Part shown: positions 10,767 to 34,309 of the stretch, one piece after another | How the letters are laid out: every line of letters begins with the position of its first letter | Numbering within the stretch: the stretch's first letter is position 1 | Assembly (NCBI GenBank): GCA_977862235.1 | Contig: OZ374560.1 | Span: forward strand, 2,852,001-2,916,000 | Length of the DNA stretch: 64,000 bases | Origin: Dudresnaya verticillata | Taxonomy: Eukaryota | Direction of reading: 5' to 3' | Notes under the pieces: model-generated | The model's input: the letters and a program-made list of their open reading frames with translations, nothing else | Databases searched by the model: none | What the model was told of the DNA's origin: nothing | Position numbers and translations under genes: made by a program

Positions 10767-10773
10767 TATTTAT
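10767..10773 (-). promoter_or_regulatory. Candidate TATA-like box (ATAAATA) ~95 bp upstream of the receptor ATG
   Basis: Isolated AT run in GC-rich flank, present upstream of all three copies (also ~18936, ~30629). Function is inference. Confidence 0.35.
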
Positions 10774-13278: not shown

Positions 13279-14880
13279 AGACATCCCGACCACGCCTACC
13301 GCCGCTCTGCTCGCTGCAACCACCCGGCGAATCGCCCCCCTCGCTCCCATTGTACACTCACACCCCTTGTTGTCCGTTGTCCTTGGCAGCAAGACTTGCT
13401 CGCTGTGGTGCACTCGCACACCATCGCGCCCCAGCCCGCGCCACTATGTTATTCGCTCCAGGTGTTGCATACGCTGTTTGACAATGTGCGTACTGGACAT
13501 CTACGGACGTCCGCTGAACCAACGCCGTCGGTATTGCGCGGATTGTGAACAGTTGTGCATACCTGGTGTCGCAGTTGGCCACAGCAGACGAAACATACAA
13601 GCGGTCCCCCATCTACTGCCTCGTATCGTTGCGTATCGGGAGAAGCGAGCCCCCTTTGGCTATATTGCCCACTAACACCGATGTCTCCACCGACAGGCAT
13701 CGGAAATGTCAAAGTTCCAGCTAGCGCGGGGAGGAAGCAAGGCGGCACGAGGCGAGGATCACAATGTTTGCATGGCCGCTCACCGCCTCGATCGCGCAGT
13801 ATCCCTGCACCGTGCTCACGCCTCCCTCGCCCACGGCATCCGTCTCGCTGCGCTGCTCTGCACCCGCATGGATGGCCTCACCGCGGCGATGGATGTGGGG
13901 CACGGTGCACCTCTCACGCAAGGTGCTGGGAGAGGGTACGCCGGGCTCGAAGAACGCGCCGGGGATTCACCGTGGCGGCGGGGTGGGGCTGTTCAACTGT
14001 AGCTTGGACGACCGCGTGGCGCTCCGATGCGTCTACTGCGTCGAGTACGGCGACGCGCAAATACCGGAAGACACCGGGGGAGGCAGCGTGCCGTGCGTGT
14101 TCGAGCTGTCCGCCCCTGCCGGGGTTCGCGCACGGGGTAGCACACCGCGTGTGATAGGCACTGTTTGGGACTCCGGCCGCACCGGTAACGGAAAAAGCGT
14201 TCTTCGAATCACTTGTCGATCGACTACGATGACGATACGTTCAGTGACGGCGGGATGCTATCCACAAGGGCTGCAGGCAATAACATTGCAAACACAAATG
14301 CAATAAGCAGCATGTTGCACCAATTCTCTCCCCTTCGGCAATAGGTATTGCAATATACAATGTCACTGCAACAACAATTGCAATTGTAATTACGAGCCCG
14401 ACAGCCCTGGCACTAACGGCAAAGCGGTTCACTCCCACTCCTTCCCATCGCCCTTCCACGTCTTCTGCTTGCCATACACGAACCCCGCCGCGTACGGTGG
14501 ATTGCTGCCGGCTTCGCAGACAATGCGTCCGGGCCTTTTCCTGCACCAGCAAGTCGCGATGCCGGACATCCGTTCGCCCCAGGCGTGACTTACGCACTCT
14601 GTGTTATGCTCCCGTACCAGCCGCCCTTCACAGCTCCCCAGTCTCGCAAAATCAATGAAGTAGGTGCGGTGCACAGGCCGTGCGCCGTTGTGCGTCATGG
14701 AAGAGGCAGCAGGTGGAAGGGATGGGATGGGCGAGGGCCATCGAGAAAAGAAGGCGGCGCACCGAATATGTAATACCTATTGTGTCGTCATGAGCTGCGT
14801 CGCAATAATGATTGCTGCAGGCAGTAAACGATGAGATATTTTAAACGGCAACGACAAACGTATACTATGGACAAACTCAA

Positions 14881-17800
14881 CTAGTGACTTTCTAGTTTCT
14901 GGAGTAGTGTGATTGCGGCTCGTTGAGCAAAATCCTCGTTCGCCTCTTCGCGGTCATTCCGAATACCAACAAACGAGCTTAAACGCCCGGCCAAGTCAGC
15001 AATTTTCGTTGATGGCGATTGACTCTGTCGTTCGTATTCGAAAAACCCTCTCCTCCTGAAAAGATCGCTATTCTCTCCATGGAAAACATCCATCGCCTTC
15101 TGACACTCTTCGACCGAGAGTTTGTAGAACAACGGGAAAATCAAGGGAGGTTTCTCGCCTCTTCCAACCGCCTCATCCGTCCGCTTGAAGAATTCTTCCA
15201 GCTCTAGCATAGGCCACTTGCGAGCCAGGAACTCTGGTGACAGTATGAATATTGCAGCTCTGCTCCCTCGAATTGCAGCCATAATTTGGTCCTTATTCGT
15301 CTTTGTGGATACCTCGAGGCTTTTCTCATCTAAGAAACAACTGACCTTTGTGCCCATTGCATTCATTACCGGCACGGCGAGGCACCCCTTCTCGCTCCCT
15401 GCGTGGCTGATAAATACATCGAAAGGTCTTGCAGCTAGTCGCACGTCAACAGGACGCGGACCTGAGCCCGCACTTGCTCCTTTGAGGATGTGCAGCTTCA
15501 ATCGCTTGAAAGTCCAAAGCTGCTCGCAAACGCAAGTGCCTTCTGCTGGGTCCAGTGGCTGGCACTGCGTACTTGTTACCCAACTCCGACGGATACCCAA
15601 CTGCACGCTACTGGAACTTCCACACCCCCCGCGCAATTCCTTAGGGCAGTCGGTGATCAGATAGTCTTTCCAGCTTGCATTGGTCCCATGCAGTGGTCCC
15701 TTCAAAAAACTTTCCATGCCCCGCAAACACTGGTGCGCAACCTGCACTGCTTCATCGGCATCCGCCCTTATAGTCCAGTCGATCCATCTCTTTTCTGGAA
15801 TAAAGCGAACCACGACTCTGCATGCTCCCGCAAGGGCCAGGATGACGGCATCTTGACGAAGCTCGGGCGGTTTTGTCCGCTCTCTTCCAATGGTTCGGTG
15901 AAGGTACGCGATCAGTGACCCTGTCAGACTTGGCGGAATGGTATCAACAAACTCTGTTCGCAAAATTAGTTCACTCTCTCCATCCTTTGTGTCACACGAG
16001 AACCCTTCCCAACCCTTTGGCAGCAGTGAAGGTATCCCGATTAGCTCGTTCTGTTCACCGTCCGCTCCTTCCACAGCCTGAAGGCGCATGATGATGTCAA
16101 ATTGACAAAGAATGTCAAGCATGACTTTTCGGACAGCCGATGGGTATTTACACCACAGTGCCTCCAGTGCTTCACGGGGTATCAACCCATTCCGATAACC
16201 GTCTGCTTCATGCTGTCCCAGAGTCTGTAAAGTCCTTTCAAACTCTTTCGCTTCTTCTTCACCCAGTCTTTCTCGCATAAACTCAGCCGGGCCCGTGACC
16301 TGCCGAATAAAGTCCAGAATAACTGTTGGATCTGGGAACACGAACCATCCCTCGCCCGTCTGCACTTCTACGATATGGCCCTGCTGACTCTGGAATTGGA
16401 TGCATTTCTCAACGTCGGCTTCTCTCTCCTCCTTGTCACTAGAGAATCCGGGAAGTCTGGCAGCATGGCTCTGAACTTCTGTCATTTCCAGAAAGACCTT
16501 TTGGCTTTCAGTGGCGTGTGACCAAATGGCTTCCCTGAGGGCAGCCCATCGAACTGGAACTCGTTCCCTTCCGTCCAGAATGTCTTCACTCGCTTCCTTG
16601 ATAAACTTCTCTAGTTCCACAACGCCTGACCCGGCACGGTCTTGTTCAGCACTGCTGTTCTTGTTCTCGATGGCAACCCACCGACACTTGTATTTGTCGA
16701 CATCGCCCTTCTCACGTACCCAATCATTGTAGACAGCCCTTCCAAGATGCTTTCGCAGTTTTTGTCGCAGCTGCTGAAACAAGTCTTCAGGGCTTTCAAC
16801 TTCTGCCTTCCTGGTTCCCACCAGGATCACCCAAACGTTTTTCGGGGTTTGCGAAGACGTATGTGCCATTTGCATCCAGTTGCATAGTTCCAACACTTCG
16901 TCCTCTTGGGTGACTTCTGACGCAAACCTTTTCAGGTCTACCACGAAAACAAAAATGGAAGCGCGGCGGATGAAGATTGCGGGAACACTGAGATACTCTG
17001 CCTGACCCCCAAGGTCCCAGCATTGCACCAACGCAGCGCGATGGTCCTCAGGAAAAACGTTACTCAAGAGCCCTTGTCGTGCTGCTTCCCAAATGGGAGA
17101 CGCTTGGGAGTTTATAGACTGCGAAGCAGCAATACTGGGCGGAGCTGGTGGTTGTTGAGCAGTGGTATGGCTGCTTGCCAATGTGTCTCCACTCTGGGGA
17201 ACGGTCCTCTTGGTCGGAGGAGCTCGGTTGGGCCAAGTGGGGAGTTTAAGGCGGAATCTTGCGGTGGATTTTTCACTCGGCCGCGATGATGCATCAGTTG
17301 CCGTGGGCAGCCGGAACAATGTAGCTCTTGACATGAGGGCATGCAAGGCCTCACTGTTGAAGGCGAGCTGGTTGACAATGTCATCGTCCAACTTGGGGCC
17401 GCCGGGGACAACAAGAGTGCGACTCAGCGACACAAAGTGTGTCGGCTGGTGGGTGGCAACGAAGGGCATGGAGCGCAGGCTCCTTACCGTGCTTGTCTTG
17501 CCGCGTGCCGCACCGCCGAGAACAAGAAGAAAGCACTGCCGTGGCTTTGCTGTGGCGGTCTTGAGGGTGTTTTCAACAAGTGTGCTAGTGTCACCGATGT
17601 GGCTAAGAAGGTATTGCCATTGGCTGCCGAAGACTTTAAGCTCAAGAGGCGTTACCTGTTGATGCGCTACTTGTTGATGCAGTTGGGCTGCTGTTTGCTC
17701 ATCGCTAGCAACACCGACATCTCCGCGGGCAAGCAATGTGGCGAGCTCATAGAGTGCGACGCGGGTGCGATGGAGTTCGATTGAGCGTTGGAAGAGGTTC

Positions 17801-18840
17801 TTCGCGCGCGGCGGATCGCGCGCGTCTCCGATATGATTGGACAAAAGCGCTTGGCCCAACCAAACCATATAAATTGGGGCCCTCTCGTGACCGCTGTCGC
17901 AGGCGCGTTGGAGCAGTTCGACGCCGCGCGGAACGTCTCGCGGAACATCGATTTCGCCGCTCAGCAGCAATTTGCCCAAATTGGACATTGCGATGACATT
18001 TTCGCCCTCCGCGATGGCGCGGTCGTACAGCGCAGCGGCGCGCGGAGCGTCTTTGGCGACGCCGTCGCCGTTTGCGAGGAGAACGCCCAAATTGACCATT
18101 GCGTCCACATTCGCAAACTCTGCAACGGCTCGTTCTAACAGCGCAGCGGCGCGCGGAGCGTCTTTGGCGACGCCGTCGCCGCTTTCGAGGAGAAAGCCCA
18201 AATTGACCATTGCGTCCACATTCGCAAACTCTGCAACGGCTCGTTCGAACAGCGCAGCGGCGCGCGGAGCGTCTTTGGCGACGCCGTCGCCGCGTCTGAG
18301 GAGAACGCCCAAATTGGACATTGCGACGGCATTTTCGCCCTCCGCGATGGCGCGCTCGAACAGCGCAGCGGCGCGCGGAGCGTCTATGGCGACGCCGTCA
18401 CCGGTTGCGAGGAGAAGGCCCAAATTGACCATTGCGTTCACAATCGCAAACTCTGCAACGGCTCGTTCGTACAGCGCTGCCGCGCGCTTTGTGTCTTTGA
18501 CAAAACCGCGCGATCCGTTATCGAGACGCAGTCCGAGATTGAACAGCGACACCCCGCGCGGATCTCGCGCGTTGGCGCGCTCGACCAGCTCCGCGGCGCG
18601 GCGCTCGTCCTTGGGCACTCCCACGGCACCTTCCTTCAGCAACAGTGCAAGGCCATGCCGCGCTTCGTCATGGTCGCCCTCATCAATCGCTCGCTCGAGC
18701 AAGGCGACGGCTCGCAAAGGCAGAACGGGCCCTCCATCTGATGCGTCCCAAAACGCAAAGGCGAGTGCAACCATGTCGTGGACGTCGGCATTGTCGTCGA
18801 TAGCTTGGCGAAGGGCAAGGCGCTGCGGTGTGGCATCCAT
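14881..18840 (-). CDS. Intact Sel1-repeat/Roc GTPase/COR/TIR protein, paralog 2 (1319 aa from first ATG)
   Basis: Single ORF: 37-aa Sel1 units (AMxNLGxLLxxGDGVAKDAPRAAAL); Roc G1 GGAARGKTS, G2 HQPT, G3 WDLGGQ, G4-like LVGTRK; COR (VPVRW, FPDPTVI, IPSLLP); TIR (FDVFISHAG...FLD...ILSPEFLARKWPMLEL...PLFY). C6 at 15625-15630. Confidence 0.92.
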   Translation of the reverse strand: MDATPQRLALRQAIDDNADVHDMVALAFAFWDASDGGPVLPLRAVALLERAIDEGDHDEARHGLALLLKEGAVGVPKDERRAAELVERANARDPRGVSLFNLGLRLDNGSRGFVKDTKRAAALYERAVAEFAIVNAMVNLGLLLATGDGVAIDAPRAAALFERAIAEGENAVAMSNLGVLLRRGDGVAKDAPRAAALFERAVAEFANVDAMVNLGFLLESGDGVAKDAPRAAALLERAVAEFANVDAMVNLGVLLANGDGVAKDAPRAAALYDRAIAEGENVIAMSNLGKLLLSGEIDVPRDVPRGVELLQRACDSGHERAPIYMVWLGQALLSNHIGDARDPPRAKNLFQRSIELHRTRVALYELATLLARGDVGVASDEQTAAQLHQQVAHQQVTPLELKVFGSQWQYLLSHIGDTSTLVENTLKTATAKPRQCFLLVLGGAARGKTSTVRSLRSMPFVATHQPTHFVSLSRTLVVPGGPKLDDDIVNQLAFNSEALHALMSRATLFRLPTATDASSRPSEKSTARFRLKLPTWPNRAPPTKRTVPQSGDTLASSHTTAQQPPAPPSIAASQSINSQASPIWEAARQGLLSNVFPEDHRAALVQCWDLGGQAEYLSVPAIFIRRASIFVFVVDLKRFASEVTQEDEVLELCNWMQMAHTSSQTPKNVWVILVGTRKAEVESPEDLFQQLRQKLRKHLGRAVYNDWVREKGDVDKYKCRWVAIENKNSSAEQDRAGSGVVELEKFIKEASEDILDGRERVPVRWAALREAIWSHATESQKVFLEMTEVQSHAARLPGFSSDKEEREADVEKCIQFQSQQGHIVEVQTGEGWFVFPDPTVILDFIRQVTGPAEFMRERLGEEEAKEFERTLQTLGQHEADGYRNGLIPREALEALWCKYPSAVRKVMLDILCQFDIIMRLQAVEGADGEQNELIGIPSLLPKGWEGFSCDTKDGESELILRTEFVDTIPPSLTGSLIAYLHRTIGRERTKPPELRQDAVILALAGACRVVVRFIPEKRWIDWTIRADADEAVQVAHQCLRGMESFLKGPLHGTNASWKDYLITDCPKELRGGCGSSSSVQLGIRRSWVTSTQCQPLDPAEGTCVCEQLWTFKRLKLHILKGASAGSGPRPVDVRLAARPFDVFISHAGSEKGCLAVPVMNAMGTKVSCFLDEKSLEVSTKTNKDQIMAAIRGSRAAIFILSPEFLARKWPMLELEEFFKRTDEAVGRGEKPPLIFPLFYKLSVEECQKAMDVFHGENSDLFRRRGFFEYERQSQSPSTKIADLAGRLSSFVGIRNDREEANEDFAQRAAITLLQKLESH
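17970..18500 (-). repeat. 111-bp coding tandem repeat (Sel1 units), paralog 2
   Basis: Same period and scaffold, different variable codons and unit order. Confidence 0.95.
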
Positions 18841-19167
18841 GTCGGCAGGAGCGGGCGGTCGAGCGGGTGGAGGCGGTTGGAGATGGGATGGTTGGGGTGT
18901 GTGTGTCGGGAGCGAGTGCGCCAAGCGCACGGCGCTATTTATGCCGCGATGAAAGTTGCAAGTGGGACGGCGGGAGGTGTTGCAGCGCGGCGTGGGCGGC
19001 GGTGTGCCGCGCGGCGGAGCTGTTTGGAGCGGATGTTGTAAAAGTCGAAAGGCGCGTTGTCACGTCAGAGCACAGTGCACGTGTATTTGGCGCTTGCGCC
19101 GATTGGCGCTCTGCGAGATGTTTCGGCCACGCACAAACGACGTCATCGCTACACCCCTGTCATACAC

Positions 19168-19425
19168 GGCGCGGCAGCGGCCGTGACGGCGAGACTGCGC
19201 AACGGTTTGGTGGGCACGAAATGCTGGCGGTGGATGACGGATGGGATTGCGAGACTGAGCTGAGCGGCGGAGCGCGAGACTGCAGCGGTACGATGACGAT
19301 GTTTGGGAGTGGTCAAAAGATCCCACAGTGAGCCAATCCGCGCAGGCGCCAAATACATGTGCACCGCGCTGCGATGAAGGAAGGCTCGCGACTCTGTTGT
19401 AAGGGCTGCAGCGATGACGACGGTT
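19168..19425 (-). repeat. Right arm of ~260-bp imperfect inverted repeat
   Basis: e.g. AAAAGATCCCACAGTGAGCCAATCCGC and GGCTCGCGACTCTGTTGTAAGGGC are exact reverse complements of sequence in 13028-13118. Confidence 0.85.
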
Positions 19426-20046
19426 AGCGGCGAAGGCCAAGTTTCCCTCCTCTTGGTCTACTTGGCATTGCCTGCTATGATTTTTATCTCCCCGCCCCAT
19501 TAATCGCGACCAGGACGACTATTTCTTCGGTCGTAGACGAAGTAGGGCGAGGTACAGAATAGTTCTATTGCGGGGCTCGGTCGGAATCCGCACTAGCGGA
19601 GAACAGTTCTTTCACGCTGCCGTGGCTATTCCTCCAGGATACGACGTGTTAAACAGGATTGAGCACGAGCTCTCCCCTTTTAAGGAAGCCACTGCAGTTT
19701 TGACGGTCTTGAAACCGCATATGAAGATGCTCCTATGGCCAAAATGAGAGTACGTTGGCGATAAAAGAGCGAAGACCAACAAGTCATTTGGCCAGTTCAA
19801 AGATAAAGATTGTTGTTCGAATTGGGGTATTTCTAACGTTTAGGTGCCTTCTATCGCATTTCCGATGATATGTTTCGCTATCCATTCCAATTGAGTGACT
19901 GAAGGAAAGATGCTTGTGAATCTTAAACGAGGCACCGACAACTTCACTACTAACTCGGTTCAGCTGCTCCGGTTTGATTACTACAACAGTCAAAACGGCA
20001 GGGTTAGACTATTTCACGACTGGTCTAGTTACAGTCTCCCCGATAA

Positions 20047-21041
20047 CTACGATGCCGGATTATCGCGGATCACAAACAACGACTTATAACTGTACCCCTC
20101 CTCTCCCTGTTTTCGGGAATCGTGTGCTTTCCATCTAGGTAGTCATACGTTGCAATAGCCTCAAGCTGCCCTTTTTCTGACATGTACTGACGTTGTTGAT
20201 AGACTTCCCATTTGTCTTTAAGGTAGGTTTCGTAACCGTCTGCAGCGCTTCCAATATTATCAAAAGTTGCGTGGAGAGAGTTCTTCCATTTACCGGAATA
20301 CAGAATAGGCCTGAAACCGTATCTACTACCACGTTGCTGTTCTTGAGTTTATGTCTCATTGTGTATTCAATACCATAGATACGAGAATTGCTCGTGACCT
20401 GAAATTCCATCGCGTGGTAAGAAGACTCTGTGCTCCCCTCATCTGTAGGGTCCCCAACGGTTCTGCCTTTAATCGTATCGCTCGGAAGATGGGCTGTATC
20501 CCCGTTCCAAATGTACGGAAAGTCCAGCTCAATGTCGAGGTCCGATTCATGCACTATGAGCATGTTGATGGTAGCTATTGCTCCCAATATGAAAATAACA
20601 GCCACCGGATGCTTCAGTAGAGACTTTGTCAGTTTCTTAACAGCTTTTTTAAAGCCCTTGCCGACGGCTTTTCTAGAAACTGATGCTGCAGTCTCAACGC
20701 TGTCCCCCGCTATCATACGTTTCGTGAATGTCGACATCAACTTAAATCCAGCCCGTACGCATGTATTTGTCAACTCCCATACATCTTTGGACACATTTCC
20801 GTCCAATTCCTTGAACGCTTTAGAGAAAGCGTACCAAACGTCTTGGCGATATTAGCAACCTGTTCGGCAAGAACAGATTTTCCCAGCACAAATACACCAA
20901 GCCTGAACAACGCATCTGGAATTCGAACAACGCATCTGGAATTCCAACGGAAACCATATACGAAAGAGGTATGTTGAAAACGACCGTATCACTAATGCCA
21001 TTGGTTTCGATATACGTTAATGCAGGTTCTATATCATCAAA
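20047..21041 (-). pseudogene. Duplicate of decayed gene at 186-1180
   Basis: Identical ORF 20135-20806 in duplication copy B. Confidence 0.45.
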
Positions 21042-22143
21042 GGCTTGTGTGATGTTATGCTATGATCATGTGACGTGATAATCAAGAAATTAGCCAAACC
21101 ACTTTTGCTAGAGGAAGTAGGGCTATGTGACGCCACAGCTACCATCCCCATCGAATGACATATATATTTAATAGAACGGGGTGACTAGTACTATCAACCT
21201 TTCTTTAGGAAACATGCTCTTCCTAGGGAAAGATTCGTGGTGGATCAACAGATATTGAGTCCCCCTTTACTGTTTTGCATGTTCGTACATGTGTGTAGGA
21301 GAGTGCGTGTTGCATCGAGACGTGTTTTCATTGGTCACGATTGGGGTCTTAGGTACCGTTCTGAAATGCTACTGGTAGGCTTTCAAAGCGATAAAAAAAG
21401 TTCCGAAAATCCACCAGTAATGACACGGCGGGGGCTTTGACACTGAGGGAAGCATCACTTTAACCAAGGCGTACCAGGAGGTCCCATCAGGGGACGAGAC
21501 TACGACGAAGGACTGAGGTGCTGAGACGGAGCTGACGGTTCACAGCAAGGGCTACATGTTGGAGCACAACCAAAACTAGACGAGATGGAGACCTTATGCA
21601 CTAGACGAGTGAGGAGAGAATTCTTCTCAACAAGCGGATTCGAGCCCTTCTTGCCCGTGAAAAAGCCAGTAAGTGTTTGCAGTCCAGAATGAAAGCTGAT
21701 TCCAACTAGACTGTAGATCTACCGGTAGATATTCACTACTAACGGATGAATGGTGATGCCATGAACAGGGCAAATATCATGATAGTGGCCGCCCTTAGCA
21801 CGCTCGCGAGCGGCAAGGGCCTGCCCAGAAACAACGCCAGACGAGCTTGAATGAGAATGAGGACGGACTTATGATGGAAACGTCGAACGCTTGTGGATGT
21901 GAAGCAAAAGTCGGATCATCAATTAACAAATCGAGACGGTAGGGGTCATGATCGGGATGCGTCGGGATAGGAAAAACGCGACGCCCGCTGGGGCGTATCT
22001 ACGGGTCGGAGTGCGGAGGGGAATGGGACATGAGCGGAAAGCTGGCTATATACTAGCGACGCCCCGCCGCGGTAACTGGATCACGAGACTAAGACAGAGA
22101 GCCGTCGGATCTGACGGGAAGTATTAACAAGTAGTTTACTATT

Positions 22144-23250
22144 CTACTGGTGATGTAGCACGAGCGTTGGGCCGGACTCATCCCAAGTCATCCTTTCCAG
22201 CGCTCTTTCTACACAGTTGAAGGTGAAGCTTACTCTCTCATAAATCCTTTCAAACTCCAGGCACAATTCATCGGGAATGTCCAAATCGAGTGGATCGCGA
22301 GGGTCAGGAATACCGTCAAGTGGTGGAGGAGGTATCGTCCCGTTGTGAACATTTTGCGTTGCGGTTCCAGACCTAGAATAACTGTAGCTGCTTTGGCTTG
22401 TCGATGTTTCCGGGCTTGGTTCGTGTTCGAAGGAACTTCTTTCCTCTGATGTGGTGGATGTACTCGTGGCTTCGCCCTCAGTCGAAGACCGAGAGCTGCA
22501 AAAGCGCACAAGCTGGTCGCTAAATTCAAGACCTCCTCGTACAGCTCTTCCGTATATACTCATAAAGCCGTGGAGTTCATCGTGCTGGCACTGCTCGTTC
22601 CAGAATGATGATTGCTGCTGGTTTAGGGCATCTGCCATCCTTCCAGGATTAACAAAACCGTGTTGAATAGACAAAACCTCACCAACATGGATAGTGCCGC
22701 GACATAGCGGGCAAGGAATATATGAATAGTCCTTCTCCCGCATATAGTTTAGAATGCAGTGCACATGGAACACGTTGGGGCAATTTGGGCACTTGACTGT
22801 ACACATTGGATACATTGGATCGGTGCAAATTGTGCATTCATCGAACATGTTTCCAACGAGTTCAGATTCCACCAACTGAGAAACCTTGGTGTACTTCAAC
22901 TCACTTAGGGCTGCGATAGCACTCAAAATCAATCTATGACGAGTTTGCATCTGCCAACAAACGTACCAAAACTTCCTTGAGTACGTCTGAAAAGGCATCC
23001 GAAGCTGTTGAATTCTTCTCAACCCCTCACTGGCAAGGTTGGCGACTTCGCTTGAGTTTGGTGACATAGCGCAAAAAGTGGTTTCTAGTCCAGACCTTAT
23101 GCTAAGCTTTCTGTGGAACGGTTTCTGTTGTTGCCTTTCGAGGAAGCCAGTCGTCTTGGGTAGGGTTGAAAACTTTGAGAGCGGTGAGAAGTGGCGCTCC
23201 TCACCGGAAGAACCACTCCCCAACCACTTATATGCCTTTCTATTTTGCAT
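22144..23250 (-). CDS. RING/PHD-like zinc-finger protein, duplicate
   Basis: Translation identical to 2283-3389. Confidence 0.7.
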   Translation of the reverse strand: MQNRKAYKWLGSGSSGEERHFSPLSKFSTLPKTTGFLERQQQKPFHRKLSIRSGLETTFCAMSPNSSEVANLASEGLRRIQQLRMPFQTYSRKFWYVCWQMQTRHRLILSAIAALSELKYTKVSQLVESELVGNMFDECTICTDPMYPMCTVKCPNCPNVFHVHCILNYMREKDYSYIPCPLCRGTIHVGEVLSIQHGFVNPGRMADALNQQQSSFWNEQCQHDELHGFMSIYGRAVRGGLEFSDQLVRFCSSRSSTEGEATSTSTTSEERSSFEHEPSPETSTSQSSYSYSRSGTATQNVHNGTIPPPPLDGIPDPRDPLDLDIPDELCLEFERIYERVSFTFNCVERALERMTWDESGPTLVLHHQ

Positions 23251-26200
23251 GGCCGACGAGCTTCATAGGAAAGTATTTCTGGTGACAATATATACCCGTT
23301 CCAATAAAGTTATATCTTGTCACAAGAGAGTCTAATGTGAAAAGATTTTCTATCCCATAGCTCGCACATACTACCAAACGCTAAGAGCAATTTTCCCTCT
23401 CCATGGACAGTTCTCTACGGTCGGTGCAGCTAACTTATGATGTTATCATCGGTGTTCTCGGGATAGTGATGACTCAATTTTTTTATGGGTTGTTTAAGGT
23501 GGTCCTACGCGGGCGACACGGGCCCGTTAGCAGGCACACCAGCCCTGGGGGGCGAGTAACATTACTTGGTATCTTTACAGAGCGCACTGCAATGTATGTA
23601 ACTGGATCGGGGTGGGATGAGGGGGGCGATAGGGTCCCGGGGGCCGGGAAAGCAGTCGCGCAGAGATTTCGAATGGCACGGATGGGTGGTCGCGATAGCA
23701 GCAAGATCAACAGTGGTCGGTTTGGCCTTTGACACTTGCGCAGGGCTGGTAAGTGAGAACGGAGTGTTGCGAGGTGTGATGGGCTTTTCCGTGGGATAGA
23801 GAAGGTGCAAAGTGGATGGAATGTGGTCGTTCTCTCGTTCTTGTGACAGCGCCTAAATTTGTGAAGTTATTGAATGGTTTCACGGACACATTTTGTCCTT
23901 GCCTTTACTCACCGGTATCATCTAAGCTACTCGGAACTGGTTCCGGGAACATCCCTACGCGCATAAAGCATTCCGAAGGAGCAAAGAAGACGACCATCCA
24001 AGGCGCGACTGCTGCACCTGTAATACCGGTTCTTCTGTGTTGCACTGCTTCTCGCGAGTTGGCTCGCGGACCTGTTCGTTCTTCAGTACAGACGCCTTTT
24101 TTTACTAGAGCTCCCAGCTTCCGCTCTATTTATGCTCTCAACTCACTGGTACTCTTCCAATCTACGTCGTTGTTTCAAATGCAGCGGTCCCTCTAAATGC
24201 AAATAGTAAATGCTAACTCGACGGCAAAGCGTCCTATATATATGTCATCTGTCTTCCGCCATGGCATGAGTCAATTCATTTCCGGCTCGATTACCTTCTC
24301 CAACGTGCATAGCTGTGTAGCTTAGCCAACATCAATTCACGATTCATCCTATTTTCTAACACACCGATAGTTGTCGAAGGGAGTGAGGGTTTTGCTACGA
24401 TTATTCTCGTAGCTACGTCAGAACAAGAGATAACAAGAGATTCGTCGCAGTAAGTTCCGAATGGAACGGCGAAACTCCACAGGTTGACTTTCTTTGGGAG
24501 CTGCAACAGGATGCTCAAAGAGAACAATGCGGTTGCTGTGGAAGGGATGCGCCATAACCGGCAGATTTACTTGCAACTATGTCAACTTGCTGGTTTCGAG
24601 GATTGGGCGTTGTTGCGTGCATCTTTATTGCTCCAGGACGTGGGAAGCTGAACACAGCTGCAGTGCTCATGGCTCTCTTGTTCTTTAATAAAGGTCCCCA
24701 TCTCTCTCCTCTTCCCTCTCTCTCATGGCAAATATCTTCCAAGGAGCTATCAGTGCTGGACCTGGTTCCCGTGCTGGTCCACAACCAGCGCCAAATTGCG
24801 TCAGGTGCTACTAATAGCGTTTCATCGAATGCTGTGTGGCGACCCCGGCAGCTACGCTGTCTGCGCTATCCGCCCGTGAGCCGTGGCAGAATCTTCTCTT
24901 GAAGCTGTACGCGTGGTCGTTAGTCGTCTTTCCGGCTTTCATCGAGCTATAATACGCGCGCCCAACTGATGTTATCGCGCGCTGGGCGCCACCCTCCTTC
25001 TTAGAGTTGCTAGTTGACGAGCTGTCGGGTTACTAATAGGCCAATCTGCTTTTCACAATGTGCGTACTGGACATCTACGGACGTCCGCTGAACCAACGCC
25101 GTCGGTATTGCGCGGATTGTGAACAGTTGTGCATACCTGGTGTCGAAGTTGGCCACAGCCGGCGAAACGTACAAGCGGTCCCCCATCTACTGCCTCGTAT
25201 CGTTGCGTATCGGGAGAAGCGAGCCCCCTTTGGCTATATTGTCCACTAACACCGATGTCTCCACCGACAGGCATCGGAAATGTCAAAGTTCCAGCTAGCG
25301 CGGGGTGGAAGCAAGGCGGCACGAGGCGAGGCTCACAATGTTTGCATGGCCGCTCACCGCCTCGATCGCGCAGTATCCCTGCACCGTGCTCACGCCTCCC
25401 TCGCCCACGGCATCCGTCTCGCTGCGCTGCTCTGCACCCGCATGGATGGCCTCACCGCGGCGATGGATGTGGGGCACGGTGCACCTCTCACGCAAGGTGC
25501 TGGGAGAGGGTACGCCGGGCTCGCAGAACGCGCCGGGGATTCACCGTGGCGGCGGGGTGGGGCTGTTCAACTGCAGCTTGGACGACCGCGTGGCGCTCCG
25601 ATGCGTCTACTGCGTCGAGTACGGCGACGCGCAAATACCGGAAGACACCGGGGGAGGCAGCGTGCCGTGTGTGTTCGAGCTGTCCGCCCCTGCCGGGGTT
25701 CGCGCACGGGGTAGCACACCGCGTGCGACAGGCACTGTTTGGGACTCCGGCCGCACCGGTAACGGAAAAAGCGTTCTTCGAATCACTTGTCGATCGACTA
25801 CGATGACGATACGTTCAGTGACGGCGGGATGCTATCCACAAGGGCTGCAGGCAATAACATCGCAAACACAAATGCAATAAGCAGCATGTTGCACCAATTC
25901 TCTCCCCTTCGGCAATAGGTATTGCAATATACAATGTCACTGCAACAACAATTGCAATTGTAATTACGAGCCCGACAGCCCTGGCACTAACGGCAAAGCG
26001 GTTCACTCCCACTCCTTCCCATCGCCCTTCCACGTCTTCTGCTTGCCATACACGAACCCCGCCGCGTACGGTGGATTGCTGCCGGCTTCGCAGACAATGC
26101 GTCCGGGCCTTTTCCTGCACCAGCAAGTCGCGATGCCGGACATCCGTTCGCCCCAGGCGTGACTTACGCACTCTGTGTTATGCTCCCGTACCAGCCGCCC

Positions 26201-26454
26201 TTCACAGCTCCCCAGTCTCGCAAAATCAATGAAGTAGGTGCGGTGCACAGGCCGTGCGCCGTTGTGCGTCATGGAAGAAGCAGCAGGTGGAAGGGATGGG
26301 ATGGGCGAGGGCCATCGAGAAAAGAAGGCGGCGCACCGAATATGTAATACCTATTGTGTCGTCATGAGCTGCGTCGCAATAATGATTGCTGCAGGCAGTA
26401 AACGATGAGATATATTAAACGGCAACGACAAACGTATACTATGGACCAACTCAA

Positions 26455-29400
26455 CTAGTGACTTTCTAGTTTCTGGAGTAGTGTGATTGCGGCTCGTTGA
26501 GCAAAATCCTCGTTCGACTCTTCACGGTCATTCCGAATACCAACAAACGAGCTTAAACGCCCGGCCAAGTCAGCAATTTTCGTTGATGGCGATTGACTCC
26601 GTCGTTCGTACGTGAAAAACCCTCTCCTCCTGAAAAGATCGTTATTCTCTCCATGGAAAACATCCATCGCCTTCTGACATTCTTCGACCGAGAGTTTGTA
26701 GAACAACGGGAAAATCAACGGAGGTTTCTCGCCTCTTCCAACCGCCTCATCCGTCCGCTTGAAGAATTCTTCCAACTCTAGCATAGGCCACTTGCGAGCC
26801 AGGAACTCTGGTGACAGTATGAATATTGCAGCTCTGCTCCCTCGAATTGCAGCCATAATTTGGTCCTTATTCGTCTTTGTGGATACCTCGAGGCTTTTCT
26901 CATCTAAGAAACAACTGACCTTTGTGCCCATTGCATTCATTACCGGCACGGCGAGGCACCCCTTCTCGCTCCCTGCGTGGCTGATAAATACATCGAAAGG
27001 TCTTGCAGCTAGTCGCACGTCAACAGGCCGCGGACCTGAGCCCGCACTTGCTCCTTTGAGGATGTGCGGCTTCAATCGCTTGAAAGTCCAAAGCTGCTCG
27101 CAAACGCAAGTGCCTTCTGCTCGGTCCAGTGGCTGGCACTGCGTACTTGTTACCCAACTCCGACGGATACCCAACTGCACGCTACTGGAACTTCCACACC
27201 CCCCCCGCGCAATTCCTTAGGGCAGTCGGTGATCAGATAGTCTTTCCAGCTTGCATTGGTCCCATGCAGTGGTCCCTTCAAAAAATTTTCCATGCCCCGC
27301 AAACACTGGTGCGCAACCTGCACTGCTTCATCGGCATCCGCCCTTATAGTCCAGTCGATCCATCTCTTTTCTGGAATAAAGCGAACCACGACTCTACATG
27401 CTCCCGCAAGGGCCAGGATGACGGCATCTTGACGAAGCTCGGGCGGTTTTGTCCGCTCTATTCCAATGGTTCGGTGAAGGTACGCGATCAGTGACCCTGT
27501 CAGACTTGGCGGAATGGTATCAACAAACTCTGTTCGCAAAATTAGTTCACTCTCTCCGTCCTTTGTGTCACACGAGAACCCTTCCCAACCCTTTGGAAGC
27601 AGTGAAGGTATCCCGATTAGCTCGTTCTGTTCACCGTCCGCTCTTTCCACAGCCTGAAGGCGCATGATGATGTCAAATTGACAAAGAATGTCAAGCATGA
27701 CTTTTCGGACAGCCGATGGGTATTTACACCACAGTACCTCCAGTGCTTCACGGGGTATCAACCCATTCCGATAACCGTCTGCTTCATGCTTTCCCAGAGT
27801 CTGTAAAGTCCTTTCAAACTCTTTCGCTTCTTCTTCACCCAGTCTTTCTCGCATAAACTCAGCCGGGCCCGTGACCTGCCGAATAAAGTCCAGAATAACT
27901 GTTGGATCTGGGAACACGAACCATCCCTCGCCCGTCTGCACTTCTACGATATGGCCCTGCTGACTCTGGAATTGGACGCATTTCTCAACGTCGGCTTCTC
28001 TCTCCTCCTTGTCACTAGAGAATCCGGGAAGTCTGGCAGCATGGCTCTGAACTTCTGTCATTACCAGAAAGACTTTTTGGCTTTCAGTGGCGTGCGACAA
28101 AATGGTTTCCCTGAGGGCAGCCCACCGAACTGGAACCTCTTCCCTTCCGTCCAGAATGTCTTCACTCGCTTCCTTGATAAACTTCTCTAGTTCCACAACG
28201 CCTGACCCGGCACGGTCTTGTTCAGCACTGCTGTTCTTGTTCTCGATGGCAACCCACCGACACTTGTATTTGTCGACATCGCCCTTCTCACGTACCCAAT
28301 CATTGTAGACAGCCCTTCCAAGATGCTTTCGCAGTTTTTGTCGCAGCTGCTGAAACAAGTCTTCAGGGCTTTCAACTTCTGCCTTCCTGGTTCCCACCAG
28401 GATCACCCAAACGTTTTTCGGGGTTTGCGAAGACGTATGTGCCATTTGCATCCAGTTGCATAGTTCCAACACTTCGTCCTCTTGGGTGACTTCTGACGCA
28501 AACCTTTTCAGGTCTACCACGAAAACAAAAATGGAAGCGCGGCGGATGAAGATTGCGGGAACACTGAGGTACTCTGCCTGACCCCCAAGGTCCCAGCATT
28601 GCACCAACGCAGCTCGATTATCCGCAGGTAATGGGTTACTCATGAGCCCTTGCCGTGCTGCTTCCCAAATGGGAGACGATAGGGAGTTTAAAGACTGCGA
28701 AGCAGCAATACTGGGCGGAGCTGGTGGTTGTTGAGCAGTGGTATGGCTGCTTGCCAATGTGTCTCCACTCTGGGGAACGGTCCTCTTGGTCGGAGGAGCT
28801 CGGTTGAGCGAAGTGGGGGGTTTAAGGTGCAATCTTGCGGTGGATTTTTCACTCGGCCGCGATGGTGCATCAGTTGCAGTTGGGAGAAACGCCGATCCAG
28901 CTCGAAAGGAGCCGGCATCGGATGCACTTGCTGTAGATGACGTTGGTCGTTCCGTTGGCGTGGGTACCTCTTGAATCTCGGACCGTGACATGAGGGCATG
29001 GAAGGCCTCGCTGTTGAAGGCGAGCTGGTCGACAATGTCATCGTCCAACTTGGGGCCGTCCGGGACGACAAGAGTGCGACTCAGCGACACAAAGTGTGTC
29101 GGCTGGTGGGTGGCAACGAAGGGCATGGAGCGCAGGCTCCTTACCGTGCTTGTCTTGCCGCGTGCCGCACCGCCGAGAACAAGAAGAAAGCACTGCCGTG
29201 GCTTTGCTGTGGCGGTCTTGAGGGTGTTTTCAACAAGTGTGCTGGTGTCACCGATGCGGTTAAGAAGGTATTGCAAGTGGCTGCCGAAGAATTCAAGTTC
29301 AAAAGGCGTTAGCTGTTGATGCGCTGCTTGTTGATGCAGTTGGGCTGCTGCGTGCTCATCGCGAGCAACACCGACATCTCCGCGGCCAAGCAATGTGGCG

Positions 29401-30533
29401 AGCTCATAGAGTGCGACGCGGGAGCGATGGAGTTCGATTGAGCGTTGGAAGAGGCTCTTCGCGCGCGGCGGATCGCGCGCGTCTCCGATATGATTGGACA
29501 AAAGCGCTTGGCCCAACCAAACCATACACATTGGGGCGCTCTCGTGACCGCTGTCGCAGGCGCGTTGGAGCAGTTCGACGCCGCGCGGAACGTCTCTCGG
29601 AACATCGATTTCGCCGCTCAGCAGCAATTCGCCCAAAACGGCCATTGCGACGACATTTTCGCCCTCCGCGATGGCGCGGTCGTACAGCGCAGCGGCGCGC
29701 GGAGCGTCTTTGGCGACGCCGTCGCCGTTTTCGAGGAGAACGCCCAAATTGACCATTGCGGCGACATTTTCGCCCTCCGCGATGGCGCGCTCGTACAGCG
29801 CAGCGGCGCGTGGAGCGTCTTTGGCGACGCCGTCGCCGTTTGCGAGGAGATCGCCCAAATTGACCATTGCGGCGACATCTTCGCCCTCCGCGATGGCGCG
29901 GTCGAACAGCGCAGCGGCGCGTGGAGCGTCTTTGGCGACGCCGTCGCCGTTTTCGAGGAGAACGCCCAAATTGACCATTGCGGCGACATTTTTGCCCTCC
30001 GCGATGGCGCGCTCGAACAGCGCAGCGGCGCGCGGAGCGTCTTTGGCGACGCCGTCGCCATTTGCGAGGAGAACGCCCAAATTGAGCATTGCCTGCACAT
30101 CCGCAAACTCTGCAACGGCTCGTTCGTACAGCGCTGCCGCGCGCTTTGTGTCTTTGACAAAATGGCGCCATCCTTCAGAGAGATTCCATCCGAGATTGTA
30201 CAGCGACACCCCGCGCGGATCTCGCGCGTTGGCGCGCTCGACCAGCTCCGCGGCGCGGCGCTCGTCCTTGGGCACTCCCGCGGCCCCTTCCTTTAGCAAC
30301 AGTGCAAGGCCATGCCACGCATGGCATGACGCTTCGACACGGCATGTCGCTTTGTCACAGTCATCGTCGCCCTCATCAATCGCTCGCTCGAACAAGGCGA
30401 CGGCTTGCAAAGGTAGAACAGGCCCTCCATCTGAAGCGCCCCAGCACACAAAGGCGAGTGCAAGCATGTCGTCGACATCGGCATTGTCGTCGATAGCTTG
30501 GCGAAGGGCACGGCGCTGCGGTGTGGCATCCAT
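26455..30533 (-). pseudogene. Sel1-repeat/Roc/COR/TIR protein, paralog 1 copy B; +2 frameshift before TIR (G8 tract)
   Basis: As copy A but C8 at 27199-27206; frame stops at 27150, TIR in ORF 26455-27180. Confidence 0.85.
29629..30152 (-). repeat. 111-bp coding tandem repeat (Sel1 units), paralog 1 copy B
   Basis: Matches 9767-10290. Confidence 0.95.
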
Positions 30534-31561
30534 GTCGGCAGGAGCGGGCGGTCGAGCCGGTGGAGACGGTTGGAGATGGGATGGTTGGGGTGTGTGTGTC
30601 GGGAGCGAGTGCGCCAAGCGCACGGCGCTATTTATGCCGCGATGAAAGTTGCGAGTGGGACGGCGGGAGGTGTTGCATCGCGGCGTGTGTGGCGGTCCCA
30701 GAGCGTGCAGCAGGCGACTTGCTGGCGGTTGTAGGAAGAGAGGTTCTCGCGGTGCCGCGAGGTGCCGCGTGGGCGGCTGTGTGCCGCGCGGCGGAGCTGT
30801 TTTGCGCGGATGTTGTAAAAGTCGAAAGGCGCGTTGTCACGTCAGAGCAGTGCACGTGTATTTGGCGCTTGCGCCGATTGGCGCTCTGCGAGATGTTTCG
30901 GCCACGCACAAACGTCGTCATCGCTACAGCCCTTACAACAGAGTCGCGAGCCATCCTTCATCGCTTCGCGAGCTTCGTGCGGAGCAAGACCTGCTCCCCG
31001 CGAGCCGACTCCGGCCGTGTCCGGCCATGTTTTTCTGTCGGCGTCCGGCACGCCCGAGGTCTGAGGTGTTGGACATGAGGCGCTGGCCTAGTGGCCTGTG
31101 ACGCGGCTACGGAAGTCATCCAACGGGCGGCGCATTGCCGGTTGTTGGCGGAGGCGGTTGTCGTGTGCTGCGCGACGTGCGATCTCCCATCTCTTTTTGC
31201 CACGCAGCAGCCGCGTCTGTATGCCGGCGGATGTTGTAAAAGTCGGCAGGCGCGTCGCGTCGTTCATCAGCGGCTGTATGCTGCGGATGCGCATCACTGT
31301 ATTTCTACATCTGCAGCATCTTTGTCCCACCGCAAGTGCACCTCGCACGACAATGACGACAAACACAGCTCTCAACGCGACTCTCTCTCTCGATGGAAGC
31401 GCACTCGGCGATGCGCTGCCGCCGCCGACCGACCATGCAATGCGCGCGAGGTGTTGTTTCTTTATTGGTGTGGTCGCATAGCGTCATTCCTTGTTATAAG
31501 AATGCTTCGGTAAAAGAACAAGCCTTCCGTCCACCGATCCGGTTCCTTTGAAATCAGCCAG

Positions 31562-32332
31562 TACAGCTCACGTATGAGGGCCACATTCCTCGATAGCTGC
31601 TCGTGCACCTTTTACTGCCCTCCCGAATACCTATCGCGGTACTCGCTTCACCCCGGAGGAATGGATTACCGCGTGTGATATCCGCTTGGGCAACCCGGTT
31701 TTTACCGGCACTACTCGTTGTCCCCACTGTGTACTCACGCGGGGCGTGACGCAAGCTCCTCTACTTGATCCTCGCGGGAAACATGCCATCATCCGCGCTA
31801 GGCGCGAAGGTGCTATCCGGCGTCATAACACCTTACGCGATGCTCTAGCCAACGAATTCCGCCAGTTGGGCCTACGCCCTATCTATGTCGAATACTCGTT
31901 TCTCGCCGAACGTCATCTGCCCCCTACTTCTCGTCGCCGTATGGACGTGGTGGTTCCTATATCTGCCTTTAGCCCCCGCCCTCAGGCCTTTGACGTTACG
32001 GTGGCAGCCCCGTTTGCTGCCAATTACTGCACTGCCGCCTCTCGCTTGGGTGGGGCAGCGGCGACGCTCGCTGAAAGGCCCAAAAGAGCGCATTACCAAG
32101 ATCTACTCGACAGCGAGGGAATGGATTGGCCGCTTTACGTCCGAACAGAGAGGGAGTAACCCTTCGGACGAAACGCAAGCACTCACGAATCGCATTGTAT
32201 CTCATCTTCTCCGCTTTCAGGCGCTGGCGATCAATCGCCGTCGTCTTGCCCTTCAGGTAGGTCCTTGCGTAGACGGGGCGACTTAGCGCCCTTCCAACCC
32301 TACCATAAAGGTCCCCATCTCTCCCATCTCTC
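31562..32332 (+). mobile_element. CRE-like non-LTR fragment, duplicate
   Basis: Identical ORF 31686-32159. Confidence 0.8.
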
Positions 32333-34309
32333 AGAGCAGTGCACGTGTAGTGTATTTGGCGCTTGCGCGCGCTCCGCACGCGCCGCCATCCGACAATCAT
32401 CCGCGGCGCCCATCGATCACAGTCCCATCGTCACCTCGCGCCGCCGCCGCTGCAGCATTCTGCCGACACATCGCTACATCACGCGCTGCACCACGCTCGC
32501 CCCCCGCGGACGCACAGCACATCACATCCACAGAACTGGCGGTGCGCAGCAGGACAATGATACCTCGTCCCTCCCCTCCGCCGCGGCAGCAAAGCAGACC
32601 CACAAAAGTGTCTAAAAAAGCATTCCAATCTCCAATCGCATCGCCAACGCGTCAGCCCCTTACTCCATGTCGATACCGTTTTGGCGGTAGTGGTGCTCTT
32701 TAATTGATGGTTGTAGCTGTGTTGGTGGAGGTACGTAGTTCGGTAACAATACTCTTTGGCTGAAGCACTTACTATGTTTCGCTCAGTGAAGGCACCCCGC
32801 CCTCTCACCCCAAAAAGCAGTATTGCGCCCCGCCCCGTACGCAACACAGCAGGAGAGTCAGAACGCTCAAACCGACGTCATCGCTACGGCCCTTACAACA
32901 GAGTCGCGAGCCTTCGTTCATCGCAGCGCGATGCACGCGTATTTGGGGCTTGTGCGGATTGGCTCACTGTGGGATCTTTTGGCCACACCCAAACGTCGTC
33001 ATCGTACAGCTGAACTCAGTCGCGCAATCCCATCCATCATCCACCGCAACCGTCAGCATTTCGTGCCCACCAAACCACCTCGAGCTGCGCTCAACTCTGC
33101 CCGTGTTGCGCAGTCTCGCCGTCACACCCGCTGCCGCGCCAGACATCCCGACCACGCCTACCGCCGCTCCGCTCGCTGCAACCACCCGGCGAATCGCCCC
33201 CCTCGCTCCCATTGTACACTCAAACCTCTTGTTGCGCGTTGTCCTTGGCAGCAAGACTTGCTCGCTGTGGTGCACTCGCACACCATCGCGCCCCAGCCCG
33301 CGCCACTATGTTATTCGCTCCAGGTGTTGCATACGCTGTTTGACATTGTCGATGCTCTATAACAGCTTCTGCCCCGCGCGCGAGCGACTTGATCCCCACG
33401 ATAAACATCTTGTGTCCGTAGTGGTCCACAACCCAGCGCTAGCCGCTAACCAACCTCCCTGCGTCAGCTTGTCCATCCCTGGCACCTTGTGCACTGCGCT
33501 ACAGATCGACAGCGCCTTGGAAATGTCCTAGCGCAATCGCAGGATGAACCAGAAGAGCGTTGCGAGAAGGCGTGATTGGCGCGCCATGGTTGCTGCCGAG
33601 GGTGGCCGGTAGGGGTGCCGTGAAGGACTGTGACGGTTGTAGTGTAATGTTAGTGGGTGCTTTGATTTCGTCGGGGCCGCCTTCATACAAATACACACCG
33701 CGTATTGGTGCCCGTCGCGGATCACACCGAATTGATCTCTCCATGTGACCAATCAATGTCCCCGAACGGCAGAGGATTACCGGCACCCCGACGCCGTCAA
33801 TCGTGAGAAAAGCAGCTCCCCACACCATCACAACCGCCAAGTACGGTATGCACCACCGCGCCACACGAGCTCGCCACGCTCGACATGCCCATGTTTTAAT
33901 GCCCACCTCGCGCACCCACCTACTTCCACACGTCATCCTCGCTCCCTTCAGCCCCAAATACTGCAATTCGACCTGGAGCCACCAGGCCGGCTTCTTCATT
34001 TCAAAGATTTTATGTTTGGCTACTACTGATATACCTACAGCAGTTTGTAACCCAGTATCCAAACTCTTGTTGATTACATTCAGTACAAACCCGCCATTGC
34101 TCTACAAAGTTGCTCCCTCGTGCCAGCGCAGTTGCACTTCTCTCCTCTACACATATGGAATGGTAACATTTTAGACATAGAAACAGCACCGTACCGGTTG
34201 AACGTTCATGAATGATAGAGGTATTCAAGCAAGCATCCCTTTAATCGCAAGATTCAGAGTAAGTCCCTTAAGGGGCTTACTCTGAATCCTTAAGGGGACT
34301 TATTACCAA

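What the first reader, a model, noticed from the sequence alone, without database searches (positions are those of the whole stretch)
14881..18840. Tandemly amplified Sel1-repeat - Roc - COR - TIR genes: candidate GTPase-switched innate-immune receptor system
Seen: three copies of a single-exon gene joining N-terminal Sel1 repeats, a Roc GTPase with intact G1/G3, a COR region and a C-terminal TIR that keeps the WxxxEL glutamate (WPMLEL). Established: Roc-COR proteins typically carry LRR, ankyrin or WD40 repeats and dimerise via COR; TIR domains with this Glu are oligomerisation-activated NADases in plant, animal and bacterial immunity. Inference: a sensor-switch-effector receptor analogous to NLRs, with Sel1 as sensor and Roc-COR replacing the STAND ATPase. 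I do not recall this architecture being characterised, but could not search.
Basis: partly seen in the sequence, partly recalled or inferred. Interest (0 to 1): 0.9.

Follow-up and report, generated by a model that had tools for sequence, protein, structure and literature searches.

The report
Red-algal Sel1-Roc-COR-TIR immune receptor candidate
This gene, likely from a red seaweed, joins a variable repeat region, a domain pair predicted to fold like the GTP switch of the Parkinson's protein LRRK2, and a TIR domain, and it likely works as an immune receptor that would cleave NAD; the layout is already listed for the seaweed Chondrus, and two of the three copies here are frameshifted.

Summary
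The architecture is real. An AlphaFold model (pLDDT 85) matches LRRK1/2 and Chlorobium Roc-COR and plant TIRs. The 'three copies' claim needs correcting. Only this copy is in frame. The other two break at a G run just before the TIR (G7 and G8 against G6) and lie in a 13.5-kb duplication that is 99.9% identical, so assembly error is possible. The layout is not new: Chondrus crispus CDF33057.1 is collinear (30% identity), 'TPR-ROCO-TIR' is in print for Chondrus, and bacterial LRR-Roc-COR-TIR proteins were predicted as counter-invader systems in 2021. Indirect signs favour an NLR-like role: near-identical Sel1 repeats varying at a few first-helix positions, dN/dS about 1 in the sensor against about 0.3 in Roc and TIR, sensor and effector swapping in the family, and TIRs related to those of NB-ARC/NACHT proteins. 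The guanine-binding motifs are atypical. No activity, expression or dimerisation was shown. Verdict: new member of a known but untested kind; interest 0.5.

The parts
14881..18840 (-). Copy B: intact, intron-free Sel1-Roc-COR-Zn ribbon-TIR ORF, 1319 aa
   Evidence: collinear with C. crispus CDF33057.1 over 1278 columns at 30% identity
17656..18783 (-). Sel1-like repeat solenoid (about residues 20-395, bounds approximate), putative sensor; core array of 111-bp (37-aa) units at 17974-18487
   Evidence: Pfam PF08238 E 2e-42; TRF period 111, 4.6 copies, 83% matches; repeat comparison
16570..17544 (-). Roc G-domain (about 433-757): G1 GGAARGKTS, G2 T467, G3 WDLGGQ, atypical G4 GTRKA, G5 EN; disordered insert at about 509-576
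   Evidence: PF08477 E 3e-8; motif alignment; model and VIA-align
15661..16569 (-). COR (helical COR-A and alpha/beta COR-B, about 758-1060)
   Evidence: COR-A E 0.034 here, down to 1e-7 in relatives, 8 of 21 members at E<=0.05; Foldseek 3dpt_A COR E 1.1e-8; VIA-align
15511..15660 (-). Four-cysteine Zn-ribbon-like segment (C1065, C1073, C1103, C1105); zinc binding is inferred
   Evidence: Cys in 33/34, 34/38, 31/36 and 30/30 aligned rows
15625..15630 (-). G6 run, in frame in copy B; G7 in copy A (7338-7344) and G8 in copy C (27199-27206)
14884..15432 (-). TIR domain (about 1137-1319) with Glu1213 (codon 15202-15204) in WPMLEL
   Evidence: TIR_2 E 4e-8; aligns to PdTIR and AbTir; RUN1 TIR 7s2z_A Z 19.4, rmsd 2.5 over 162 residues
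6594..10671 (-). Copy A: same gene, frameshifted at G7 before the TIR; TIR frame (6594-7370) is free of stops
26455..30533 (-). Copy C: near-identical to A, frameshifted at G8; TIR frame (26455-27216) is free of stops
19862..33349 (.). Block 99.91% identical to window 1-13487 (holds copy C, a RING-H2 gene and other ORFs); may extend beyond the window's left edge
13477..17310 (.). 3' part of unit B with 1.4 kb of downstream DNA, 98.1% identical to 5190-9024; the Sel1 part (17329-19003) is only 90.9% identical to A

Best explanation
This is a Roco-family protein (Sel1 repeats, Roc-COR, four-cysteine segment, TIR) that likely acts as an NLR-like intracellular immune receptor, probably in a red alga. 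Shown: the domain order, the predicted Roc-COR and TIR folds, the P-loop Lys, switch I Thr, switch II DxxG and TIR Glu, a multigene family that exchanges sensors and effectors, and faster, position-restricted change in the Sel1 repeats. Inferred steps: (1) the Sel1 groove binds a pathogen protein or a modified host protein; (2) binding shifts the nucleotide state of Roc and with it the COR-mediated monomer/oligomer balance, as in other Rocos; (3) assembly brings TIRs together to form NAD-cleaving active sites, which would drain NAD or make an ADP-ribose-type messenger and trigger local defence or cell death. Which nucleotide state is 'on' is unknown. A COR dimer alone may be too small, since active plant TIR receptors are tetramers. 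New specificities would arise by segmental duplication and repeat exchange, and frameshifted copies would be the expected debris, if they are real.
For: Domains and folds. TIR Glu in 121 of 123 hits aligned at that column (124 TIR hits). G1 Lys 22/24, G3 Asp 25/27. Family: 22 proteins at E<=1e-30, forming one starred clade of 14 rows with four Chondrus or Chondrus-cluster proteins. Members include Sel1-, Ank- and TIR-fronted forms, a Sel1 form with a non-TIR tail, and Sel1-TIR proteins without Roc. Related TIRs sit on NB-ARC-WD40 and NACHT proteins, and 3 Roco-borne TIRs fall among STAND TIRs behind a 99/98 branch. The eight core Sel1 repeats are 78-98% identical in DNA, with 24 of 37 positions invariant; copy A reaches 89% over 100 aa, like the high-internal-conservation repeats enriched in fungal NLRs (PMC4986451 passages). 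A versus B: dN/dS 0.99-1.02 over residues 1-395 against 0.27-0.32 in Roc and TIR. Within repeats, pN is 0.170 in the first helix and flank against 0.021 in the second (p 1e-7, post hoc split), while pS does not differ (p 0.31). Published precedents: PMC8195603 and PMC11378527.
Against: No activity, binding partner, expression or infection data; no sequencing run was available to test them. dN/dS in the sensor is about 1, not above 1, so relaxed constraint or gene conversion fits as well as positive selection. Copy B (81%) misses the 85% high-conservation cut-off, and none of 12 relatives tested reaches it (17-73%). The G4 Asp is missing in copy B and in 20 of 26 family rows (counted), so GTP specificity is unproven. 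COR dN/dS is 0.65 on few changes. The first AU test did not reject one clade for C-terminal Roco and Sel1 TIRs (p 0.074); the rejecting test (p 0.004) was framed after seeing the tree. Human and Dictyostelium Rocos have varied non-immune roles (PMC6337361 passages). Two of three copies are out of frame.
Confidence: 0.55

Rival explanations
1. It is a functional Roco-TIR signalling protein, but not pathogen-triggered: a GTP-level or stress sensor, or a developmental cell-death or self-recognition regulator, with Sel1 binding host partners.
For: Characterised Rocos act in development, trafficking and kinase signalling, and their activity may track GTP levels (PMC6337361 passages). Most relatives have old, diverged Sel1 repeats. 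No infection data exist here.
Against: Paralogue turnover, repeat homogenisation with first-helix variation, sensor and effector swapping and TIRs related to those of NLR-like STAND proteins are typical of conflict genes.
Confidence: 0.2
2. The locus is decaying or inert: recently duplicated copies in a transposon-rich region, with A and C pseudogenised, the Sel1 part drifting neutrally and the G-domain no longer a working switch.
For: A and C are frameshifted; sensor dN/dS is about 1; G4 is atypical; neighbours include a broken helicase with an in-frame stop and transposon fragments. Many brown-algal Rocos are called pseudogenes (PMC11378527 section 14).
Against: Copy B is open over 1319 codons with all core motifs. 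pN is below pS in the TIR (5 vs 5 changes, p 0.045) and in Roc. The second helix of the repeats is constrained (pN 0.021). The G4/G5 pattern is shared across the family (E725 in 26/29).
Confidence: 0.15
3. The TIR is a scaffold and not an enzyme: the receptor senses and oligomerises, then recruits other TIR proteins such as TIR-NB-ARC-WD40 or TIR-kinases as helpers.
For: Red algae hold several TIR-bearing classes. The Glu is kept in over 70% of all TIRs, while only a subclass is known to be active (PMC7075850 passage), so it does not prove catalysis.
Against: The closest solved TIRs by sequence include the NADase AbTir, and by fold the plant enzymatic TIRs RUN1 and RPP1. Glu conservation is 121 of 123.
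Confidence: 0.1

Closest known systems
Chondrus crispus TPR-ROCO-TIR proteins (CDF33057.1, CDF33637.1 'Sel1-repeat containing protein'; CDF40092.1; CDF39398.1 'TIR domain-containing protein GTPase')
   Same: Same domain order; CDF33057.1 is collinear over 1278 columns at 30% identity, E 2e-147; same clade by Roc-COR tree; architecture named in PMC11378527.
   Different: Only about 30% identical. The window's Sel1 repeats are internally near-identical (81-89% per 100 aa) against 21-29% in the Chondrus proteins. A recent local duplication is visible here. No functional test was found for either.
Prokaryotic AP-GTPase (Roc)-COR counter-invader proteins (Kaur et al. 2021, PMC8195603)
   Same: Repeat sensor, Roc-COR, variable C-terminal effector including TIR; multiple paralogues; predicted immune role.
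   Different: Bacterial, described with LRR sensors; this one is eukaryotic with Sel1. Also computational in the passages read. Their source-data tables were not read.
Roco family: LRRK1/LRRK2, Chlorobium tepidum Roco, brown-algal LRR-ROCO candidate receptors
   Same: Roc-COR tandem fold (Z 19-23); G1-G3 motifs.
   Different: No LRR and no kinase; Sel1 sensor, Cys4 segment and TIR; G4 without Asp and G5 'EN'.
Fungal NLRs with high-internal-conservation TPR/ANK/WD repeats; red-algal TIR-NB-ARC-WD40 proteins
   Same: Tripartite logic, near-identical repeats with a few variable positions, related TIRs.
   Different: The switch is a Ras-like Roc-COR, not a STAND ATPase; the order is reversed (sensor N-terminal, effector C-terminal); positive selection is not shown here.

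Membership tests
Roco proteins | Roc G-domain immediately followed by COR | tested here: met
   Roc above Pfam cut-off; model aligns across Roc and COR to 8e04, 3dpu_A and 6hlu_A at Z 19.5-22.8; COR-only 3dpt_A at E 1e-8
Roco proteins | G1, G2 and G3 motifs intact | tested here: met
   K448 22/24, T449 20/23, D609 25/27, G612 26/28; T467 20/22 (counted)
Roco proteins | Guanine-specificity motifs G4 and G5 | tested here: inconclusive
   G4 reads GTRKA; Asp in 6 of 26 family rows; G5 Glu 26/29. PMC6337361 says Roco G4-G5 vary from the classical form
Roco proteins | GTP binding and hydrolysis; COR-mediated monomer-dimer cycle | not testable with these tools
   Needs biochemistry
Chondrus-type TPR/Sel1-ROCO-TIR | Sel1/TPR - Roc - COR - TIR order and common descent of the Roc-COR | tested here: met
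   Collinear alignment; starred clades with Chondrus proteins
Enzymatic TIR (NADase) | TIR fold with catalytic Glu in helix C | tested here: met
   E1213 aligns with the W..EL Glu of AbTir and PdTIR; fold match to RUN1 TIR, rmsd 2.5
Enzymatic TIR (NADase) | Oligomerisation-dependent NAD cleavage | not testable with these tools
   Needs an assay
NLR (STAND) receptors | Central STAND NTPase (NB-ARC or NACHT) | tested here: not met
   No NB-ARC or NACHT hit in Pfam; the centre is Roc-COR. It may work like an NLR but is not one
High-internal-conservation repeat receptors (fungal NLR criterion) | At least 85% identity over 100 aa between repeats | tested here: inconclusive
   Copy A 89%, copy B 81% by an ungapped offset measure of my own; criterion from PMC4986451
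High-internal-conservation repeat receptors (fungal NLR criterion) | Positive selection at concave-face positions | tested here: inconclusive
   Variation concentrates at positions 1, 3, 6, 10, 13, 14, 29, 37 but pN/pS is about 1.04 there; the Sel1 part was not modelled

The most novel reading that the evidence does not exclude
Red algae run a third class of intracellular immune receptor in which Roc-COR takes the place of the NLR ATPase. It shares TIR effectors with their STAND receptors, diversifies its Sel1 groove by concerted repeat shuffling as fungal NLRs do, and reads its nucleotide with a rewired G4/G5 pocket. At this locus a slippery G run just before the TIR would switch copies between armed receptors and TIR-less decoys that still pair through COR.
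Probability: 0.1. Interest if true: 0.85.

Novelty: new member of a known kind. Interest (0 to 1): 0.5.

Why it matters
No Roco protein with a TIR effector turned up as experimentally tested in the ten literature searches run, and a review passage says red algal genomes lack canonical plant receptors (PMC8307928). An intron-free, single-chain sensor-switch-enzyme with an easy readout (NAD loss) would test directly whether Roc-COR can gate an immune effector, and in which nucleotide state. That bears on the open monomer/dimer question for LRRK2-type switches and on disease resistance in farmed seaweeds. The value lies in testability, not in the architecture, which is already on record.

Tried and rejected
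No whole genome is held, so no genome-wide count was possible. The look-up of sequencing runs: none was listed, so the G run and expression could not be checked on reads. Word-based protein searches were nearly blind: 1 weak hit, 1 hit with alignment A1, none for the neighbouring helicase, so the host could not be placed by a second gene. The Atlas did not hold the window protein; a Chondrus homologue gave Roc/COR clusters at 0.96. A single-sequence fold was useless (pLDDT 36.5); the alignment fold failed once and then succeeded. The complex predictor was not available, so there is no verdict on COR dimerisation. A short intron across the G run was considered and set aside by eye, not tested, because it would remove the conserved C1073. 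The Chondrus (Collen 2013) and Porphyra (2017) genome papers are not held; their supplements may already describe this family as candidate pathogen receptors. The supplement text of PMC11378527 held none of six terms, and its figures are not visible. Earlier scan notes had nothing by sequence or with all of my first words.
Full report
Observation. The minus-strand frame 18840-14881 is open for 1319 codons. Pfam gives Sel1 (E 2e-42), Roc (3e-8) and TIR_2 (4e-8) above cut-off, and COR-A only weakly (0.034). Two more copies exist, A (6594-10671) and C (26455-30533). Each is split into Sel1-Roc-COR and a separate TIR frame. The break is a G homopolymer: G6 in B, G7 in A, G8 in C. As written, A and C end at 1116 and 1127 aa. 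A and C lie in blocks 1-13487 and 19862-33349, which differ at 12 positions, one of them this indel. B matches A at 98.1% over 13477-17310 but at 90.9% over the Sel1 part.

Are the frameshifts real? This is unresolved. For error: these are the only two G/C runs of 7 or more in the window, and a neighbouring helicase also breaks once near a short C run. A's TIR frame has no stop and pN is below pS (5 vs 5 changes; p 0.045), so any break is recent. For real: only 1 indel separates the two 13.5-kb blocks, although the first holds 38 runs of 5 or more bases. C also carries a B-like base 90 nt from the run, which looks like conversion or mixed polishing. A second helicase nearby is a true-looking pseudogene with an in-frame stop. 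No genome and no reads were available.

Fold. A single-sequence model failed. With 75 relatives chosen from the 157 proteins then stored (guided), residues 431-1319 modelled at pLDDT 85.4 and pTM 0.78, with one disordered insert. The top 34 Foldseek ranks listed are all Roco structures, followed by plant TIRs. VIA-align gives LRRK1 8e04 Z 22.8, C. tepidum RocCOR Z 19.6 over 430 residues, and RUN1 TIR Z 19.4 at rmsd 2.5. COR and TIR are therefore supported. The Sel1 part was not modelled. G1-G3 are conserved. G4 is GT[RH]xx with Asp in 6 of 26 family rows (four outgroup rows left out), and G5 is a conserved EN (Glu 26/29). From recall, not from a call, an EN motif reads guanine in Toc34-type GTPases, so the pocket may be rewired and not dead. 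Four conserved cysteines between COR and TIR suggest a Zn ribbon; the G run lies inside it. E1213 aligns with the Glu of AbTir and PdTIR and is kept in 121 of 123 hits aligned there (hits were found with this query, so the count is biased).

Family. A full HMMER scan with residues 471-1319 found 753 proteins at E<=0.001 and 22 at E<=1e-30. Of 30 look-ups, the named members were Chondrus crispus (four Roco proteins), one Gracilaria changii TIR protein and two JGI labels; the rest are unnamed. The host is therefore inferred to be a red alga. CDF33057.1 is collinear with copy B at 30% identity. An 18-row Roc-COR tree puts B in starred clades with Chondrus proteins (a long-branch warning applies to the root). 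Among 21 hand-picked hits scanned and 7 proteins, architectures were Sel1-Roc-TIR, Ank-Roc-COR-TIR, TIR-Roc-TIR, Sel1-Roc with a non-TIR tail, Sel1-TIR, and related TIRs on NB-ARC-WD40 and NACHT proteins. In a 43-row TIR tree (near-duplicates, long branches, two further rows and 74 unclassified TIRs left out), 16 Roco TIRs and 2 Sel1 TIRs form a starred group, while 3 Roco-borne TIRs fall among STAND TIRs. The first AU test did not reject monophyly of the C-terminal set (p 0.074). A second, post hoc test with the N-terminal TIRs added did (p 0.004). TIR exchange between the two platforms is thus likely for the N-terminal TIRs and unproven for CDF40092.1.

Sensor evolution. A versus B gives dN/dS 1.02 (1-110), 0.99 (111-395), 0.32 and 0.28 (Roc), 0.65 (COR) and 0.27 (TIR); the N:S ratio differs between sensor and core at p 0.047. 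Eight core repeats are 78-98% identical in DNA. A2-A4 and B4 are 95-98% alike, which points to homogenisation within and between copies. Three or more residues occur at positions 1, 3, 6, 10, 13, 14, 29 and 37, while 24 of 37 positions are invariant. The 3-6-10-13-14 spacing marks one helix face and, from recall, matches the ligand-binding positions of TPR repeats. pN is 0.170 against 0.021 for the two parts of the repeat, with similar pS. The split was post hoc and pairs repeats by index. This resembles fungal NLR repeats (PMC4986451, passages), but omega is not above 1, B misses the 85% criterion, and none of 12 relatives meets it.

Mechanism. The best reading (0.55) is an NLR-like receptor: Sel1 binds a non-self or altered-self protein, Roc-COR changes nucleotide and assembly state, and assembled TIRs cleave NAD. 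Only the parts and the evolutionary pattern are shown. C. tepidum Roco cycles between monomer and dimer through C-terminal COR (PMC6337361, passages), so the 'on' state cannot be assumed to be GTP-dimer. RPP1 is a tetramer and LRRK2 has a tetramer state (PDB titles), so higher-order assembly is plausible. Rivals are non-immune signalling (0.2), a decaying locus (0.15) and a scaffold TIR (0.1).

What is in print. PMC11378527 (passages, section 14 and supplement text) names 'TPR-ROCO-TIR (Chondrus crispus)', counts five Chondrus ROCOs and frames algal ROCOs as candidate immune receptors. PMC8195603 (passages) predicts bacterial LRR-AP-GTPase-COR proteins with TIR among at least 24 effectors; earlier scan notes led me to it. 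PMC12115072 (passages) lists Sel1 proteins as potential pathogen receptors in Asparagopsis. I also saw passages of PMC6928737, PMC9806590, PMC7159879, PMC7075850, PMC8307928 and PMC5717322; the other papers listed were seen only as search listings. Ten searches of the held library showed no functional test of a Roc-COR-TIR protein. The library lacks most subscription papers and the Chondrus and Porphyra genome papers.

Verdict. A real gene and a new member of a known, untested kind. The amplification is smaller and less secure than first stated. The added observations are the Zn-ribbon-like segment, the family-wide G4/G5 change, the concerted and position-restricted Sel1 variation, and the TIRs related to those of STAND proteins. 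Interest 0.5.

Noticed in passing
window 40849-44930 (-) and 58469-63126 (-): Two UPF1/SEN1-like superfamily-1 helicase genes (AAA_11 and AAA_12). The first has one frame break near 41500 at a short C run; the second has many breaks and an in-frame stop.
   Followed up: partly
window 34794-36965 (+): Ty3/gypsy-type RNase H-integrase fragment; upstream frames are closed.
   Followed up: partly
window 48911-52258 (+): 1115-aa ORF with no Pfam hit; its Cys clusters and C-terminal motifs recall a CxC/KDZ-type transposase (recalled, untested).
   Followed up: no
window 11716-12297 and 31578-32159 (+): ORF that recalls the endonuclease end of a non-LTR retroelement (recalled motif; no Pfam hit), upstream of copies A and C.
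   Followed up: no
window 19069-19370; 10981-11109; 13008-13214: 80-nt inverted arms upstream of copy B, with related pieces upstream of A and C; possibly a MITE-like element in the promoter regions.
   Followed up: partly
window 2283-3401 and 22144-23262 (-); 274-990 and 20135-20851 (-): A RING-H2-like gene and an unknown ORF are co-duplicated in the 13.5-kb block, identical at protein level.
   Followed up: no
proteins P0014 and P0154 (unnamed ENA records): Sel1-Roc-COR relatives whose C-terminal 300-400 residues are not TIR and have no Pfam hit: a candidate unknown effector domain.
   Followed up: no
window 53001-55275 (+): Two overlapping ORFs (477 and 301 aa) with no Pfam hit that meet at a G-rich stretch near 54425; possibly one broken gene.
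   Followed up: no
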